DNA of 64,000 nt from Candidatus Delongbacteria bacterium (GTDB lineage Bacteria > CAIWAD01), in NCBI GenBank assembly GCA_963663545.1, contig OY760505.1:788176-852175 (forward strand), in the 5' to 3' direction. Below, piece after piece: positions 1 through 64,000 of the stretch; position 1 is the stretch's first letter, and each line of letters begins with the position of its first letter. A program made the translations under genes and the position numbers. The notes under the pieces were generated by a model. It saw only the letters and a list, made by a program, of their open reading frames with translations. It was not told the origin of the DNA and did no database searches.

Positions 1-199
1 TAATGATCAAGCGTCCGTTGGCCGCCTGGCCACGACTGCTGCCAGCCGCATCCAGGATCAGGTCCACAGCCTGCAGAAAGCTGTCATCAATGCGGTCATG
101 CAGCGCGTCCAGAGCTTCGCGCTCGATGCGTACTACACGCCGCAGAACTTCCAGCTCTTCGTCGCGTGACACATGATCCAGGTTGTCATTGCTGGACAC
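1..199 (-). CDS. kdsD: arabinose-5-phosphate isomerase (KdsD/KpsF family), N-terminal fragment running off the window
   Basis: Absent from the ORF track because there is no stop in the window. The reverse-strand frame is open from GTG at 199-197 to base 1: VSSNDNLDHVSRDEELEVLRRVVRIEREALDALHDRIDDSFLQAVDLILDAA...GRLII. This resembles the KdsD N-terminus and the start of the SIS domain. It overlaps the kdsC stop by 14 nt and sits in a kds operon. Start codon uncertain. Confidence 0.55.
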   Translation of the reverse strand, partial: MSSNDNLDHVSRDEELEVLRRVVRIEREALDALHDRIDDSFLQAVDLILDAAGSSRGQAANGRLII

Positions 200-746
200 T
201 GGCCGCCCTCCCTGCTCCCGACATGTACTGATTCAGCACAGCGTCATATTTTCCCGTAGCCAGCAACAGCGCTTCGGCAAACTGCCTCACAGCGCCTTCT
301 CCGCCATTGCGGTCGCTGACGAAATCACTGCGCAGGCGGACTTCCTCTTCTGCATCTGCGGGACAGGCCGTAACACCTACGCGACCGAACAAGGGAAGAT
401 CAATCCAGTCGTCGCCCATATAGGCCACCTGGCTGGGTTCCAAACCCTCGCATGTCAGCAGTTCATCATAGGCCTGCAGTTTGTCAGGGCGCCCCTGTAT
501 CACGGGATCAAGGCGAAGTTCCGCTGCACGGCGTGCAACCGAAGCGCTTTTGCGTCCGGTCAGAATCCCCACGCGAAATCCTGCCACCTGCAACAGTGTG
601 ATACCCAGGCCATCGCGTGCCGAGTAGGCCTTCAGTTCCTCTTGCTCGCCCAGGTAGAGCCGTGCATCGGTTAAAACGCCGTCCACATCTAGGATCACAA
701 GTTTGATCCGGGTGGCCCGTTCGGCAAAATCCTCGCGGTGATACAT
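186..746 (-). CDS. kdsC: 3-deoxy-D-manno-octulosonate 8-phosphate phosphatase (HAD family)
   Basis: 186 aa ORF with the HAD motif I VILDVDGVLTD and the later GDDWIDLP motif. Lies next to kdsA. Confidence 0.85.
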   Translation of the reverse strand: MYHREDFAERATRIKLVILDVDGVLTDARLYLGEQEELKAYSARDGLGITLLQVAGFRVGILTGRKSASVARRAAELRLDPVIQGRPDKLQAYDELLTCEGLEPSQVAYMGDDWIDLPLFGRVGVTACPADAEEEVRLRSDFVSDRNGGEGAVRQFAEALLLATGKYDAVLNQYMSGAGRAASVQQ

Positions 747-752
747 GCGACC

Positions 753-1610
753 TCAGCAGCTGGTAAAGGGAGTAGCTTCGGCGTTGGCTGCCACCTGGTG
801 AATGGCAAGGCAGTCCTTTAGCAGACCTCGCAATCGCGACAAGGGCAGCATGCTGGCGGCATCGCATTTGGCATTGCCCAGATCGTCGTGGGTCTCCAGA
901 AAGAGCACATCCACGCCCGCGGCCACTCCGGCTCGAGTCAGGTGCGGAATGTACTGCGGTTCGCCACCCGCCGGGTCAGCGCTGGACACGCCGTACTTGC
1001 GAACGGTGTGAGTGGGATCAAACACCACCGGCCAGCCCAAACTGCGCATCATGGGCAACCCGCGCATATCGGCGACCAGATTGTGATACCCGAAGCATGT
1101 ACCGCGATCGGTAAGCATTACGCCGGGGCATCCGCTTTCAACCAACTTGTCGACGACGTTACGCATGTCCAGCGGATGCAGAAACTGGCCCTTCTTCACA
1201 TTGACCACGCGCCCTGTTTCGGCGGCGGCTATGGCCATGCTGCTCTGCATACTCAAATAGGCGGGAATCTGCAGGATGTCCAGGACTTCAGCAGCAGGCG
1301 CGCACTGGTCCGGTGTATGCACATCGCTGATGACCGGCACCTTGAATGTATCACGCACTTCGGCCAGTATCTTCAGCCCCTCTTCAAGGCCAGGACCTTG
1401 AAAGGAGTTGATGCTGGAGCGATTGTCCTTCGTGAAGCTGCTTTTGAAAACCCAGTTGATCTTGAGCTCATCGCAGATGGCCTTGACCTGCTCAGCGATG
1501 CGCAGGCAGACATCACGTCCCTCAATGACGCAAGGACCGGCAATCAAGGCCAGAGGCTGACCGGCACCCACTTCAAATTCACCAATGCGAACGGTATTGG
1601 ACATGCTCAT
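753..1610 (-). CDS. kdsA: 2-dehydro-3-deoxyphosphooctonate aldolase (KDO-8-P synthase)
   Basis: 285 aa, with full-length similarity to KdsA ([29 protein letters not shown]). ATGA overlap with the pyrG stop. Confidence 0.95.
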
Positions 1611-62698: not shown

Positions 62699-62702
62699 CG
62701 CT

Positions 62703-62833
62703 CTTAATCGGTATCGCTGCCGACCCTTCGGGTAGGATCGCTATCGGTATCGCTGCCGACGCTTTGCGTCGGATCGGTATCGGTGCTTATTTTGTGATAC
62801 ATGCGAGCGGACGAAAGTCCGCTCTTTCTTTTT
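62703..62833 (+). repeat. REP-like element, copy C (two hairpin units plus terminator)
   Basis: Opens with TTAATCGGTATCG, followed by CTGCCGACCCttcGGGTAGGATCG. Next come GGTATCGCTGCCGACGC.ttt.GCGTCGG (62756-62772) and GTGATAC (62794-62800). It ends with the terminator hairpin. Confidence 0.7.
62805..62833 (+). terminator. intrinsic terminator of the DHOD-like gene (part of REP-like copy C)
   Basis: GAGCGGA, loop cgaaag, TCCGCTC, then TTTCTTTTT. Confidence 0.7.
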
Positions 62834-63009
62834 CCTACGCGGAAGGCGCCCCTGCGGGGGGCTCTCTCGCCTGCGGCGGGCATTCGCCTACGCGGCGAAG
62901 CGGAAGAGGCGCCGCCGTCGCGGCGCAAGACCACTTTTCTTTGTCGCGTCAAAGAAAAGATGGTGTGCTCATAAGCAAGCCTTAGTCTGAAGATAATTTG
63001 TCTCCAGCT

Positions 63010-64000
63010 CTATTCTGCTGGAGGCTTGGGCACGTGATACGGGTCGTACACCTTGCCAGTAACCACGACAGCCCGCATCAGCACAAGCAATTTGCGCATG
63101 ACAGCACACCGTGCCTGCATTTTGCCTTTGCCTCTGATGATCAGGCCATCACTAAAGGCTTTCAGCGGAGACCCCTTAGGTTGGCCTGTAACACTCGCCA
63201 TGAACAGCATCTGCCGGAGGAGTGCAGATCCACGTCTGGTGATGTGACCGCCACTCTTGATGCTTGTACCGGATTGGCGCTGGCGTGGAGATAGCCCGGA
63301 GTACGCCGATAGCTGGCGGCTACGCGCAAAGCGCTCCAGTGGCCCTACCTCGCCCAGCACGACAGCGGCAACCATAGGACCAACTCCAGGAATTGTGCGC
63401 ATCAGCCCAGTAGCATTGCACAGCTCTTCATGCTCATTCACACACTGCTGAATGAGCATGTCCGCCTGCTTCAGCGCAGCCTCCAACTGCTCAGCCAGGG
63501 CCTTGTCGGCCTCGAACAGCTCTGGATCACCTGTCAGCTCCTGCAGTCGCTGCCTGGCCGCATTGCGTAGCTTCATGACATGTGCTCTGTAGCGTACACG
63601 TTCACGCAAAACCTGGTAAGCAGATGGCAACTCATGGAATGGACTTGGCTTCCGCTCGCAGCCGTAGCGGGCGAGTGCTGCAGCGTCCATCTTGTCGGTT
63701 TTGTTACGTACGCCAAGGCTTTTCGCGTGATACGAGGTTCTGGTGGGATCCTCAATAGCGACAAGCAGAGAGGGCTCCAGCTCAAGCAGCCAGTCCTTCA
63801 GCTCTACGCTGTAGCGCCCTGTGCTCTCCATGACAATGCCTGCGGGAAGCCAATCCTGCGTGGAACAAATCTCCTGGAGCCATTCCAGAAGCTGAGCTGC
63901 ACCAACCTCTGATCTGGGAAACGAAGAGCATGGATACTCTGACAGTGGCAGCCTGGTGTCACAATACTCAGGGTGACACCAAGCTGCATCAAAAGTCTGC
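63010..64000 (-). CDS. IS110-family transposase (DEDD recombinase), 5' end outside the window
   Basis: The frame is open from the window edge to TAG at 63012-63010. The track ORF starts at an internal Met (MESTGRYS, the EATG.Y-type motif). The C-terminal domain reads LMRTIPGVGPMVAAVVLGEVG...FARSRQLSAYSGLSPRQRQSGTS...ITRRGSALLRQMLF. Confidence 0.88.
   Translation of the reverse strand, partial: QTFDAAWCHPEYCDTRLPLSEYPCSSFPRSEVGAAQLLEWLQEICSTQDWLPAGIVMESTGRYSVELKDWLLELEPSLLVAIEDPTRTSYHAKSLGVRNKTDKMDAAALARYGCERKPSPFHELPSAYQVLRERVRYRAHVMKLRNAARQRLQELTGDPELFEADKALAEQLEAALKQADMLIQQCVNEHEELCNATGLMRTIPGVGPMVAAVVLGEVGPLERFARSRQLSAYSGLSPRQRQSGTSIKSGGHITRRGSALLRQMLFMASVTGQPKGSPLKAFSDGLIIRGKGKMQARCAVMRKLLVLMRAVVVTGKVYDPYHVPKPPAE
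63010..64000 (-). mobile_element. IS110-family insertion sequence, partial; ends not determinable from one copy
   Basis: The transposase is as above. IS110-family elements lack classical terminal inverted repeats. The AT-richer 62930-63009 stretch with a 10-bp hairpin (62934-62959) may belong to the element's 3' end. Confidence 0.6.

What the first reader, a model, noticed from the sequence alone, without database searches (positions are those of the whole stretch)
1..64000. Hyper-abundant non-palindromic heptamer GTATCAC/GTGATAC (with GTAACAC variant) throughout genes and spacers
GTATCAC or its complement recurs every few hundred bases.

Counts (hand tally):
- About 105 exact copies in 64 kb: about 60 as GTATCAC and about 45 as GTGATAC on the + strand.
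- About 27 copies of the single-substitution form GTAACAC/GTGTTAC, split roughly 21:6.
- At about 60% GC the zero-order expectation is 0.3^3 x 0.2^4 x 128,000, about 5-6 per heptamer. The excess is therefore roughly 20-fold for the main form and about 5-fold for the variant.

Exact examples: 497-503, 738-744, 1348-1354, 1828-1834, 1876-1882, 2297-2303, 3546-3552, 3584-3590, 3687-3693, 9788-9794, 9815-9821, 16182-16188, 20251-20257, 20293-20299, 24554-24560, 28134-28140, 41201-41207, 41266-41272, 48615-48621, 48642-48648, 49281-49287, 52031-52037, 53070-53076, 62794-62800.

Contexts:
- It falls in different codon phases. In kdsC it encodes V-I-Q at 503-497 and G-I-T at 604-598. Many RDT/GDT/CDT/VIH/LYH tripeptides in the translations come from it.
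- It occurs inside conserved housekeeping genes and in spacers.
- The variant sits in the loop of the terminator at 40756-40774.
- It sits at the equivalent position of two REP-like elements, but in opposite orientation.
- Flanking bases are only weakly constrained.

Interpretation: there is no strong strand polarity, so it is unlike Chi or KOPS. The density and frame independence resemble DNA uptake sequences (Neisseria DUS, Pasteurellaceae USS), or a dispersed site for an abundant sequence-specific DNA-binding or modification system. I do not know a described motif with this sequence.
Basis: partly seen in the sequence, partly recalled or inferred. Interest (0 to 1): 0.8.

Follow-up and report, generated by a model that had tools for sequence, protein, structure and literature searches.

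The report
Hyper-abundant GTATCAC word in Delongbacteria genomes
One seven-letter DNA word, GTATCAC, occurs about every 600 bases in this uncultured bacterium and in some of its relatives, far more often than chance or codon usage allows. It looks like the "self-tags" that other bacteria use when they take up and recombine DNA from their own kind, but no such tag has been described in this group.

Summary
GTATCAC/GTGATAC occurs 107 times in 64 kb (60 + 47) and is the commonest 7-mer. Expected counts are 4-14 under Markov orders 0-3, 5 under codon permutation and 16 under synonymous shuffling.

- **Distribution:** it falls in all five stop-free reading phases. It lies in genes (1.6/kb) and spacers (2.4/kb), with Poisson spacing, no conserved flanks beyond T(-1) and not-T(+1), and no strand polarity.
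- **Strength:** 58% of the peptide positions that could encode the word do encode it, against a median of 3% for all words. 42% of all rare ATA codons lie inside it.
- **Elsewhere:** the window comes from a Candidatus Delongbacteria genome (FCB group). The same enrichment occurs in four other loci from at least two other assemblies, giving 207 copies in 145 kb. One relative carries a dialect, tGGATCACg. Several higher-GC relatives have none. Site positions are mostly not shared between orthologs.
- **Interpretation:** I favour a self-DNA tag that builds up by drive from biased uptake or recombination, like DUS, USS or HIP1 (confidence about 0.4). Uptake, competence genes and methylation could not be tested. 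Unlike DUS/USS, the word is short and is not concentrated in terminators.
- **Ruled out:** Chi/KOPS-like polarity, a repeat family, codon bias, VSP-type repair and assembly artefact are rejected or unlikely.
- **Literature:** no paper in the searched library holds this word.

The parts
1..64000 (.). Dispersed hyper-abundant word: 107 exact copies. GTATCAC on + starts at 497, 1348, 1827, 1876, 2947, 3546, 3584, 4008, 4162, 5631, 6589, 7444, 9788, 9815, 12510, 13489, 16182, 17835, 18590, 19408, 20251, 20293, 21120, 21639, 22011, 23264, 23667, 28290, 29059, 31234, 32528, 33676, 35912, 37374, 39179, 39431, 39724, 41201, 41266, 42699, 43470, 44164, 44428, 46427, 48062, 48326, 48615, 48642, 49112, 49281, 52031, 56108, 56748, 58101, 58538, 59380, 60761, 60855, 61434, 62463. 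GTGATAC on + starts at 598, 738, 1083, 2297, 2865, 3687, 4290, 7705, 7966, 8379, 10784, 11096, 11766, 11964, 12457, 13768, 14074, 14177, 18350, 18826, 22445, 22538, 24553, 28134, 30984, 32078, 33733, 34696, 36502, 43027, 44220, 44303, 47923, 48996, 52516, 53070, 53900, 54476, 55276, 55507, 56224, 59101, 59302, 61367, 62794, 63034, 63727.
   Evidence: exact positions. (nulls). (flank logo: T at -1 in 62/107, T at +1 in 6/107, nothing else out to +/-15). (gap CV 1.00; counts per 4-kb bin have variance/mean 0.87).
1..64000 (.). Enriched variant words of the same degenerate motif: GTAACAC/GTGTTAC 37, GTGTCAC/GTGACAC 42, GGATCAC/GTGATCC 39, GTAGCAC/GTGCTAC 24, GTAGTAC/GTACTAC 13, GTATTAC/GTAATAC 10. 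GTACCAC is depleted (2 copies).
   Evidence: counts against expectation. (the variants share the T(-1) and G/A(+1) flanks; non-enriched neighbours do not).
497..503 (+). Example inside the kdsC-like HAD hydrolase gene (186-746, minus strand). It reads GTG ATA CAG = V-I-Q and uses the rare ATA codon.
48615..48648 (+). Two same-orientation copies 27 bp apart at the purM-like/alaS junction. A second pair with the same 27-bp spacing lies at 9788/9815.
   Evidence: The number of close pairs (10 gaps of 70 bp or less) matches the random expectation (11.7), so I read the pairs as chance.
40756..40774 (+). Intrinsic-terminator-like hairpin GGGGCTG-TAACA-CAGCCCC followed by a T-run. The variant TGTAACACA spans the loop.
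   Evidence: fold, -25.3 kcal/mol for 40730-40800.
53040..53166 (-). Terminator/REP-like composite element downstream of the acyl-CoA ligase gene. It has the hairpin GAGCGGGTGAAAGCCCGCTC, the word at 53070-53076 just 5' of that hairpin on the transcribed strand, further hairpins, and (GATACC)n repeats.
62700..62835 (+). Second copy of the same composite element, downstream of the DHO-dehydrogenase-like gene. The word at 62794-62800 is in the opposite orientation. The element abuts the IS110 insertion.
63034..63040 (-). Copy inside the IS110-family transposase gene; a second copy lies at 63727-63733. At the first position the 80%-identical IS110 homolog in L090 has GTGTCAC. At the second it has an unrelated sequence.

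Best explanation
GTATCAC, more fully T-G-[T>G]-[A>G]-[T>A>G]-[C>T]-A-C-[G/A, not T], is a lineage-specific tag for self DNA.

**Proposed mechanism.**
- A protein of the DNA-uptake or DNA-processing machinery prefers DNA fragments that carry the word. These are conspecific fragments entering by natural transformation.
- Such fragments are therefore taken up or recombined more often.
- As a result, any mutation that creates a better match spreads by biased gene conversion (molecular drive). The spread continues until it is balanced by mutation, codon preference and protein constraint.
- This is the mechanism accepted for DUS in Neisseriaceae and USS in Pasteurellaceae. It has recently been proposed for HIP1 in cyanobacteria.

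**Shown here.**
- The extreme over-representation is frame-independent and orientation-independent.
- The pressure overrides codon usage and alters protein sequence.
- It acts on all resident DNA, including an IS element and defence genes.
- Sites turn over between lineages.
- Related lineages carry the same word, a dialect, or nothing.

**Inferred, not shown.**
- That the recogniser belongs to the transformation or recombination machinery.
- That these organisms are competent.
- Whether the bias acts at uptake (DUS-like) or after entry (Chi-like protection or recombination stimulation, or dependence on methylation as for HIP1).
For: 1. **Size of the excess.** There are 107 copies against 4-14 (Markov), 5.2 (codon permutation) and 16 (synonymous shuffle).
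2. **Synonymous saturation.** Of the peptide positions that permit the word, 93 of 161 carry it (58%). The figure is 53-60% in each of four motif-bearing data sets and 0-9% in four relatives without the motif. The median over all 8192 words is 3%. 29 of 69 rare ATA codons lie in the word. About 6,000 sites per 3.7-Mb genome (extrapolated), each held against codon bias, are easier to explain by a drive than by selection site by site. This last step is inference, following the argument summarised.
3. **No positional logic.** Spacing is Poisson (CV 1.00). All five stop-free phases are used. Density in coding sequence is about that in spacers. The orientation ratio equals the ratio of peptide potential.
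4. **Mismatch gradient.** Over-representation is 23-40-fold at 0 mismatches, 1.9-2.5-fold at 1 and no more than 1 at 2-3. This is the pattern described for DUS/USS as a signature of molecular drive. Only some positions tolerate change, and the tolerated variants keep the same flanks, so a single recogniser with a graded specificity is implied.
5. **Placement in proteins.** Codons under the word are 31-43% identical to orthologs, against 57-62% overall.
6. **Turnover.** Window and L082 have 18 and 12 sites in 3,904 aligned codons, and only 2 are shared.
7. **Spread beyond the window.** L089, L090, L091 and L082/L083 have 1.06-1.47 copies per kb, or 207 copies in 145.5 kb. L087 has the dialect tGGATCACg: 18 in coding sequence against 3.2 and 7.5, with saturation 0.44.
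8. **Islands.** A low-GC island in L091 (3.7-9.3 kb) has 0.36 copies per kb against 1.9 per kb around it.
9. **Prior.** The three dispersed hyper-abundant words that I know of (DUS, USS, HIP1) are all linked to natural transformation.
Against: - No uptake or competence gene, minor pilin or DNA methyltransferase lies in the 64-kb window or in the roughly 80 kb of motif-bearing relatives' loci. The rest of the genome could not be read, so competence is unknown.
- The word carries only about 15 bits (7 bp plus weak flanks), so it would discriminate self from foreign DNA only about 10- to 15-fold.
- Only 12 of 107 copies are intergenic, and none forms the inverted pairs in terminators that hold about half of DUS/USS copies.
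- The IS110 element and the TIR/AAA defence genes carry the word at about normal density, whereas DUS are said to be scarce in mobile DNA. That comparison rests on my memory, not on a tool result.
- Motif-bearing lineages are not sisters in an AlaS neighbour-joining tree, and both have about 58% GC while relatives without the motif have 65-73%. A composition-linked cause is therefore not fully excluded.
Confidence: 0.4

Rival explanations
1. The word is a HIP1-like functional site kept by selection. It would be the target of an orphan DNA methyltransferase and/or of an abundant sequence-specific DNA-binding protein that organises the nucleoid or marks the chromosome, with no role in DNA uptake.
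For: - HIP1 is similarly 15-300-fold over-represented, lies inside genes, is recognised by orphan methylases, and was argued to be kept by selection with a chromosome-structure role.
- The graded tolerance at positions 2-5 and the shared flanks are what a protein recognition profile looks like.
- The word has quasi-twofold symmetry, GT-R-N-Y-AC. The degenerate palindrome GTRWYAC covers four enriched word pairs, 196 copies in all.
Against: - Positions are not conserved between orthologs (2 shared among 18 and 12 sites). With 53-60% saturation, those two V-I codon pairs are expected by convergence. HIP1's case for selection rested on positional conservation.
- The asymmetric hybrid GTA-T-CAC is far commoner than either symmetric form (107 against 42 and 10), which argues against a symmetric dimer or a Type II-like palindromic site.
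- Selection at each of thousands of interchangeable sites would be very weak (inference).
- No methyltransferase or candidate binding protein was seen. The only methyltransferase in the window, at 17922-18605, is of the small-molecule class.
Confidence: 0.22
2. The word is a Chi-like signal that acts after DNA entry. It would attenuate a RecBCD/AddAB-type nuclease or stimulate RecA loading. DNA carrying it, whether a broken chromosome or incoming linear DNA, would then be preserved and recombined, and this would also drive its accumulation.
For: - Chi sites are short (5-8 nt), species-specific, over-represented and common inside genes (established knowledge).
- A Chi-like step was proposed as one of two ways in which HIP1 raises transformation efficiency.
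- A 7-mer has a typical Chi length.
Against: - Known Chi sites are strongly co-oriented with replication. Here the window has 60 against 47, and over four loci 62 sense against 91 antisense. That equals the ratio of peptide positions able to host each orientation (72:89).
- The enrichment (about 20-fold, one copy per 600 bp) is well above the Chi values I recall, apart from 5-mers.
Confidence: 0.12
3. The word is a by-product of a context-specific mutation or repair bias. One example is very-short-patch repair coupled to a cytosine methylase that recognises it, with no function for the word itself.
For: - The word accumulates in all resident DNA, including an IS element and defence genes, and is scarce in an apparently recent low-GC island. 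A genome-wide mutational pressure would produce this.
- VSP repair is known to raise CCWGG in E. coli (established knowledge).
Against: - VSP-type repair can only convert the T-for-C neighbours into the word, so the gain is bounded by the pool of those neighbours (a few copies expected). The observed excess is about 100 copies.
- The deamination neighbour GTATTAC is enriched, with 10 copies against 1.2-5 expected, not depleted.
- Neighbours differing by transversions (GTAACAC, GTAGCAC, GGATCAC) are enriched as well.
- No repair system that corrects any mismatch towards a 7-bp consensus is known.
Confidence: 0.08
4. The enrichment is not a real feature: it stems from codon or dipeptide usage, a dispersed repeat family, or a sequencing or assembly artefact.
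For: - Some intergenic copies sit in repeated terminator/REP-like elements.
- Methylated motifs can cause systematic base-calling errors in nanopore assemblies (established knowledge).
Against: - The codon-aware nulls fail by 6- to 19-fold.
- Five phases and both orientations are used.
- There is no flank conservation.
- 95 of 107 copies lie inside intact housekeeping ORFs.
- The same word is enriched in assemblies from different projects and assemblers (NCBI GCA_046766455.1, ENA ERZ21862665, ENA ERZ21831093).
Confidence: 0.02

Closest known systems
[quoted passage not shown]
   Same: - It is a single non-palindromic word at about one copy per kb, in both orientations and all reading frames, inside conserved genes.
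- Over-representation falls off in a gradient with mismatch number.
- Sites are placed in less conserved protein positions.
- Related lineages carry dialects.
- Site positions turn over between lineages.
   Different: - The core is 7 bp with two weak flanking positions, not 9-12 bp.
- 89% of copies are in coding sequence.
- There are no inverted pairs forming terminators, whereas about half of DUS/USS copies lie in terminators.
- The word occurs at normal density in an IS element.
- The host is an uncultured FCB-group candidate phylum, with no evidence yet for competence, a receptor pilin or biased uptake.
HIP1 (GCGATCGC) of cyanobacteria
   Same: - The over-representation is of the same order (HIP1 is 15-300-fold).
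- It reaches more than one copy per gene, mostly inside ORFs.
- It occurs across a phylum but patchily, with variant words in some lineages.
- Its function is unresolved. Recent work links HIP1 to natural transformation and methylation.
   Different: - HIP1 is a perfect palindrome containing GATC and CGATCG methylase sites. GTATCAC is asymmetric, and only the GGATCAC dialect contains GATC.
- HIP1 positions are reported to be conserved between genomes. Here they are mostly not, although the comparison is at much greater divergence.
- Neither methylases nor 10-90-kb periodicity could be tested.
Chi and KOPS/AIMS (polar over-represented oligomers)
   Same: It is a short, species-specific, over-represented word found within genes.
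   Different: - It shows no replication-linked strand polarity.
- It is several-fold denser and more strongly enriched than these words.
REP/MITE-type dispersed repeats
   Same: It has many copies per genome, and a few copies lie in repeated intergenic hairpin elements.
   Different: - No sequence is conserved around the word.
- Most copies are inside coding sequence.

Membership tests
DUS/USS (DNA uptake enhancing sequences) | Preferential uptake or transformation by DNA that carries the word | not testable with these tools
   This needs uptake or transformation assays, and the organism is known only from metagenome assemblies.
DUS/USS (DNA uptake enhancing sequences) | A competence apparatus (type IV pilus, ComEA/ComEC, DprA) and a sequence-specific receptor (ComP/ComN-type minor pilin) in the genome | not tested
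   None is present in the 64-kb window or in L082 and L089-L091. The rest of the 3.72-Mb contig could not be fetched. A TfoX_C-only 85-aa protein in L091 is not informative.
DUS/USS (DNA uptake enhancing sequences) | One non-palindromic word that is hugely over-represented, in both orientations and all frames, at about one copy per kb | tested here: met
   There are 107 copies in 64 kb and 207 in 145.5 kb over five loci. Five of five possible phases are used and the orientation split is 60:47.
DUS/USS (DNA uptake enhancing sequences) | A large share of copies in transcription terminators, often as inverted pairs | tested here: not met
   12 of 107 copies are intergenic. Two lie beside terminator hairpins, and one variant lies in a terminator loop. 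No inverted pair forms a stem. For DUS/USS about half of copies are in terminators.
DUS/USS (DNA uptake enhancing sequences) | Core of 9-12 bp | tested here: not met
   There are 7 invariant positions. The flanks add only 0.53 bit at -1 and 0.20 bit at +1.
DUS/USS (DNA uptake enhancing sequences) | Graded over-representation of mismatched forms, and lineage-specific dialects | tested here: met
   Over-representation is 23-40-fold at 0 mismatches, 1.9-2.5-fold at 1 and no more than 1 at 2-3. L087 carries tGGATCACg.
HIP1-type highly iterated palindrome | Perfect palindromic octamer that embeds the sites of orphan methyltransferases | tested here: not met
   The word is asymmetric: its reverse complement is GTGATAC. 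The symmetric relatives GTGWCAC and GTAWTAC are less abundant, at 42 and 10 copies. Methylases are not testable.
HIP1-type highly iterated palindrome | Over-representation of 15-300-fold, mainly within ORFs | tested here: met
   The excess is 18.6-fold over codon permutation and 28-fold over order-1 Markov. 89% of copies are in coding sequence.
HIP1-type highly iterated palindrome | Site positions conserved between genomes beyond neutral expectation | tested here: inconclusive
   Two sites are shared among 18 and 12 in 3,904 aligned codons. This is above the naive chance level (about 0.02). Both, however, are conserved V-I peptides, which are expected to converge at 52% saturation. The only comparison available is at 60% amino-acid identity.
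HIP1-type highly iterated palindrome | Periodic distribution of 10-90 kb along the chromosome | not testable with these tools
   Only 64 kb of contiguous sequence is available.
Chi / KOPS (polar motifs) | Strong co-orientation with the direction of replication | tested here: not met
   The window has 60:47 with constant GC skew. Over four loci there are 62 sense and 91 antisense copies, matching the window's 72:89 peptide potential.
REP/MITE dispersed repeats | Conserved extended sequence or hairpin around each copy | tested here: not met
   Information content is no more than 0.06 bit at every flank position from -15 to -2 and from +2 to +15.
VSP-repair-driven enrichment of a methylase site | Depletion of the T-for-C deamination neighbours, and an enrichment bounded by the size of their pool | tested here: not met
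   GTATTAC/GTAATAC has 10 copies against 1.2-5 expected. The excess of about 100 copies far exceeds the neighbour pool.

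The most novel reading that the evidence does not exclude
Delongbacteria, an uncultured FCB-group candidate phylum, would have their own short self-recognition word with dialects (GTATCAC and GGATCAC). 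The word would bias DNA uptake or recombination and accumulate by molecular drive. This would be a third or fourth independent origin of the DUS/USS/HIP1 phenomenon. It would also be the shortest such word, and one that sits almost entirely in coding sequence and has rewritten codon usage and protein sequence (58% synonymous saturation). A still more novel reading is that the recogniser is not part of the transformation machinery at all. In that case this would be an unknown kind of genome-wide sequence drive.
Probability: 0.4. Interest if true: 0.85.

Novelty: new variant of a known kind. Interest (0 to 1): 0.72.

Why it matters
I know of only three families of dispersed hyper-abundant words in bacterial genomes: DUS, USS and HIP1. 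Each has been central to the debate over whether natural transformation evolves as sex, with recognition of self DNA, or whether such words are by-products of a molecular drive.

A new case would add several things:
- it comes from a distant, uncultured phylum;
- it has a different architecture: 7 bp, asymmetric, 89% in coding sequence and not terminator-associated;
- it gives a measurable strength of pressure (more than half of all synonymous opportunities are filled, and 42% of a rare codon's uses are hijacked);
- close relatives carry the same word, a dialect or nothing, which sets up a natural comparative experiment.

Correlating presence or absence of the word with gene content across Delongbacteria genomes could point directly to the recogniser.

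There are practical uses too. The word is a strong signature for binning and host assignment of Delongbacteria contigs and their mobile elements. If it proves to be an uptake or recombination signal, it would be a design rule for future genetic tools in this group.

Tried and rejected
- **PyrG look-up.** The exact look-up of the window's PyrG found nothing, probably because the start codon differs.
- **GTDB scan with AlaS.** None of the 80 loci shows the enrichment (0.47 copies per kb or less). Closer relatives had to be reached through the protein database.
- **Loci without DNA.** No DNA was available for P0016 and P0006.
- **The window's own contig.** The 3.72-Mb contig could not be extended. 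The look-up of the IS110 transposase returned only a second contig.
- **Abundant words in L081, L086, L084 and L085.** These first looked like other hyper-abundant motifs. In L081 and L086 they are 12-bp tandem arrays. In L084/L085 I did not resolve them; their extension to words of 10 bp or more suggests a local repeat. I do not count any of them as dialects.
- **Metagenome scan for three copies within 31-bp gaps.** It returned 120 stretches. Every one I examined was a tandem or collagen-like coding repeat: single orientation, and spacings in multiples of 9. No new dispersed case emerged.
- **TfoX_C-domain protein in L091.** Checked as a competence hint, it gave no supporting family match.
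- **Similarity to other sites (from memory, not tool-tested).** I considered the DnaA box (TTATCCACA), CRP half-sites (TGTGA/TCACA) and NtcA sites (GTA-N8-TAC). I dropped them because spacing and sequence do not fit and none is hyper-abundant.
- **Bipartite Type I-like site.** Rejected, because there is no information at +/-15 bp.
- **Clustering, regular spacing or paired sites.** Rejected.
- **SNP patches between L082 and L083.** These could reflect recombination, but they could equally be strain mixing in the MAG consensus, so I do not use them as evidence.

Full report

Yes. An exact count gives 60 GTATCAC and 47 GTGATAC on the + strand. That is 107 copies in 64,000 bases, one per 598 bp, and it is the most abundant of all 7-mers.

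- The window is 58.4% G+C. Expected counts on both strands are 6.0, 3.8, 7.4 and 13.7 under Markov orders 0 to 3.
- Against order 3 the word has z = 25. The next words on the list are its own sub-words and variants.

**2. Codon-aware tests**

I called genes with a self-trained codon model and corrected the calls with Pfam and NCBIfam matches. The window is 92% coding. It holds ordinary housekeeping genes, nearly all on the minus strand: kdsC-like, kdsA-like, pyrG, kdsB-like, pfk, ispG, dnaK, der, cydAB, purF, hflX, alaS, purM-like, pyk and others.

- Coding sequence holds 96 copies. Permuting codons within genes gives 5.2 +/- 2.4. Shuffling synonymous codons while keeping every protein sequence gives 16.0 +/- 3.9. 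Both codon choice and the amino-acid sequence itself have therefore been bent towards the word.
- All five reading phases that contain no stop codon are used: 17, 14 and 9 in the sense orientation, 29 and 26 in the antisense. The sixth phase would contain TGA.
- Density is 1.6 per kb in coding sequence and 2.4 per kb in spacers.
- A sharper measure is synonymous saturation. Of 161 tripeptide positions whose amino acids allow the word, 93 (58%) carry it.
- I computed the same index for all 8,192 word pairs over the four motif-bearing data sets. GTATCAC scores 0.57 against a median of 0.03. The next words are either ATG-containing, and so trivially high, or its own variants.
- 29 of the 69 ATA codons and 17 of the 82 TCA codons in the window lie inside the word.

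**3. Anatomy**

- *Flanks.* An alignment of all 107 copies shows no conservation from -15 to +15, with two exceptions: T at -1 (62 of 107) and avoidance of T at +1 (6 of 107; G in 47, A in 31, C in 23). This is not a repeat family.
- *Neighbours.* Of the 21 one-mismatch neighbours, only some are enriched: GTAACAC (37), GTGTCAC/GTGACAC (42), GGATCAC (39), GTAGCAC (24) and GTATTAC (10). GTACCAC (2) is below expectation. Changes at positions 1, 6 and 7 fall within about two-fold of expectation, apart from the absent GTATAAC.
- *Same recogniser.* The enriched variants share the T(-1) and G/A(+1) flanks. Non-enriched neighbours do not. One recogniser with a graded profile, T-G-[T>G]-[A>G]-[T>A>G]-[C>T]-A-C-[not T], accounts for all of them.
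- *Gradient.* Over-representation falls from 23-40-fold at 0 mismatches to 1.9-2.5-fold at 1, and to 1 or less at 2-3.
- *Spacing.* Gaps between copies have CV 1.00, and the longest gap (3.6 kb over cydAB) is within the random expectation. Close pairs are no more frequent than chance, and neighbouring copies do not prefer the same or the opposite orientation.
- *Orientation.* The window has 60:47. Over four loci there are 62 sense and 91 antisense copies. This equals the ratio of peptide positions able to host each orientation in the window (72:89). There is no polarity of the Chi or KOPS kind.
Two similar terminator/REP-like composite elements, at about 53040-53166 and about 62700-62835, carry the word just 5' of the hairpin in opposite orientations.

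**4. Where does the window come from, and is the enrichment found elsewhere?**

The window's AlaS is on record on a 3.72-Mb contig. Its nearest relatives are only 64-69% identical, and where they are named they are called Candidatus Delongbacteria, of the FCB group. T9SS sorting domains in the window agree with this placement. I fetched the syntenic alaS regions of six relatives.

| Locus | Source | G+C | GTATCAC copies | Reading |
|---|---|---|---|---|
| L082/L083 | GCA_046766455.1 / GCA_046766335.1 | 58.7% | 24 in 22.6 kb | Enriched; in CDS 21 against 1.3 (permuted) and 3.0 (synonymous); saturation 0.54 |
| L087 | GCA_030429345.1 | 66.5% | 5 in 22.6 kb | Dialect tGGATCACg instead: 22 dispersed copies in both orientations; in CDS 18 against 3.2 and 7.5; saturation 0.44 |
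| L084/L085 | GCA_020431785.1 / GCA_020634015.1 | 65-66% | 3 and 4 | At most a weak signal |
| L081, L086, L088 | ENA and JGI assemblies | 69.5-73% | 1, 2 and 3 | No enrichment |

- *More loci through the IS110 element.* The IS110-family transposase at the window's end gave access to unrelated regions.
  - L089 (ENA ERZ21862665) carries a 99.2%-identical IS copy. It has 21 copies in 16.8 kb, including in TIR/AAA defence genes and in pheST.
  - L090 and L091 (ENA ERZ21831093) hold IS homologs at 80% and 77% amino-acid identity. They have 24 and 31 copies in 21 kb each, across flagellar, ABC-transporter and T9SS genes.
- *Total.* Altogether there are 207 exact copies in 145.5 kb.
- *More distant genomes.* Eighty more distant FCB-group genomes show nothing.
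- *Phylogeny.* In an AlaS neighbour-joining tree the window and L082 are not sisters, and motif-free lineages branch between them. The trait is patchy.

**5. Evolutionary behaviour**

- In 3,904 aligned orthologous codons (60% identity) the window has 18 sites and L082 has 12. Only 2 coincide, and both are conserved V-I peptides written GTG-ATA-C. With about 52% saturation for that peptide class, such coincidences are expected by convergence. The sites therefore turn over, and the enrichment is renewed independently in each lineage.
- Codons under the word are clearly less conserved than average: 31-43% against 57-62% amino-acid identity in four comparisons.
- The IS110 element has two copies in the 1.1 kb that lies in the window (one further copy lies in the part of the L089 IS region beyond the window's end). 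At those two positions its 80% homolog in L090 has a variant (GTGTCAC) at one and an unrelated sequence at the other.
- A low-GC island in L091 has five-fold fewer copies than its surroundings.
- The pressure thus acts on all resident DNA and takes time to show.

**6. Mechanism**

*Case for a drive.* The pressure fills more than half of all synonymous opportunities at what extrapolates to several thousand interchangeable sites. It ignores position, frame and orientation, and it reshapes proteins at their least constrained positions. These properties fit a drive (biased transmission) better than selection site by site. This is the argument made for DUS/USS, where uptake bias plus recombination suffices and produces exactly the mismatch gradient seen here.

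*Against repair bias.* Repair of the VSP type cannot give this result. It can only convert the deamination neighbours, whose pool is a few copies, and those neighbours are enriched rather than depleted.

*Best explanation.* I favour a self-DNA tag recognised during uptake or processing of incoming DNA. DUS and USS work this way. [quoted passage not shown]

*What is missing.* I could not see competence genes, a receptor or a methylase, because only 64 kb of the genome and about 80 kb of relatives were accessible. There are also real differences from DUS/USS. The core is 7 bp. Only 11% of copies are intergenic. There are no inverted pairs in terminators, whereas about half of DUS/USS copies lie in terminators. 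I therefore put this reading at about 0.4.

*Rivals.*
- A HIP1-like site kept by selection for binding or methylation: about 0.22.
- A post-entry Chi-like role, weakened by the lack of polarity: about 0.12.
- A repair or mutation by-product: about 0.08.
- An artefact, codon effect or repeat family is excluded. The enrichment is seen in assemblies from three projects, inside intact conserved ORFs, and it defeats codon-aware nulls.

**7. Novelty**

- A full-text search for GTATCAC or GTGATAC found no paper. The 21 papers that mention Delongbacteria do so only in passing, to judge from the 17 titles and abstract openings listed.
- The kind of thing, a dispersed hyper-abundant word, is known. This word, this phylum and this architecture are not. 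The architecture is short, asymmetric and almost wholly in coding sequence, with a dialect in a relative.
- I rate it a new variant of a known kind and of high interest. The mix of relatives with the word, with the dialect and without either makes the recogniser findable by comparative genomics.

Noticed in passing
window 62859-64000 (minus strand; runs off the window end): An IS110-family insertion sequence. The transposase is 343 aa (P0121) and its first roughly 14 codons lie beyond base 64000. A 99.2%-identical copy sits at another locus (L089 5794-6936). Homologs at 80% and 77% amino-acid identity are in L090 and L091. In the window and L089, and less clearly in L090, the 3' end of the IS is followed by a GATACCGAT-repeat element, which suggests target-specific insertion.
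   Followed up: partly
window 53040-53166 and 62700-62835: A composite intergenic element is present twice, each time downstream of a gene end. It has a terminator-like hairpin GAGCGGRY-GAAA-GYCCGCTC with a T-run, one GTATCAC copy, one or two further hairpins (TCCGAC...GTCGGA), and (GATACC)n / CGATACCGAT repeats. GATACCGAT also occurs three times each in L089 and L090. The ORF 62704-62952 that overlaps one copy looks spurious.
   Followed up: partly
L087 (GCA_030429345.1), whole locus: This relative, at 66.5% GC, carries the dialect tGGATCACg: 22 dispersed copies in 22.6 kb and synonymous saturation 0.44, with only 5 copies of GTATCAC. GGATCAC is also mildly enriched in the window (39 copies).
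   Followed up: yes
L081 4195-4555; L086 1475-1545 and 5342-5510: Long 12-bp tandem arrays (CCGCGGTCGGAC-like and CCCGCGGACGAC-like) lie between genes in the two highest-GC relatives. They account for those loci's most abundant 8- to 10-mers. I did not examine their function or whether they are coding.
   Followed up: partly
L085 about 18048-21049; L084: L085 shows a second hflX-like gene (19742-21049) after the first (16741-18048). It also has highly repeated words (CCATCTCGTCCACCA-like, about 20 copies in L085 and about 12 in L084). This is probably a local repeat or an assembly duplication.
   Followed up: no
L082 against L083 (22,637 bp each): The two assemblies differ at 46 positions. 41 of these fall in seven short patches, for example 3547-3691, 6943-7032 and 18723-19060. 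This could be short-tract recombination between strains or strain mixing in the MAG consensus. No SNP touches an exact GTATCAC. One creates or destroys GTGACAC at 7002.
   Followed up: partly
L091 3719-9246 and 14756-15013: A low-GC (44-48% in parts) island holds MazE-like, AAA_13/SMC_N and HTH genes and only 2 motif copies in 5.5 kb. Nearby is a stand-alone 85-aa TfoX_C-domain protein. HigB/HTH toxin-antitoxin genes lie at 16183-16674.
   Followed up: partly
L089 1-4998: A defence-type gene cluster (a 547-aa protein, an AAA_5 ATPase, a TIR/SEFIR protein and Trypco2) lies next to the IS110 copy. It carries the motif at about 1 copy per kb.
   Followed up: no
window 24553-28134: This is the longest motif-free stretch (3.6 kb). 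It covers cydAB and a spacer. It is within the random expectation for 107 sites (mean longest gap 3.1 kb), so it is not evidence of foreign origin.
   Followed up: yes
window, all coding sequence: Codon usage is visibly distorted by the word: 42% of ATA (Ile) and 21% of TCA (Ser) codons lie inside it. Analyses of codon usage or HGT by composition in these genomes would be misled unless the word is masked.
   Followed up: yes
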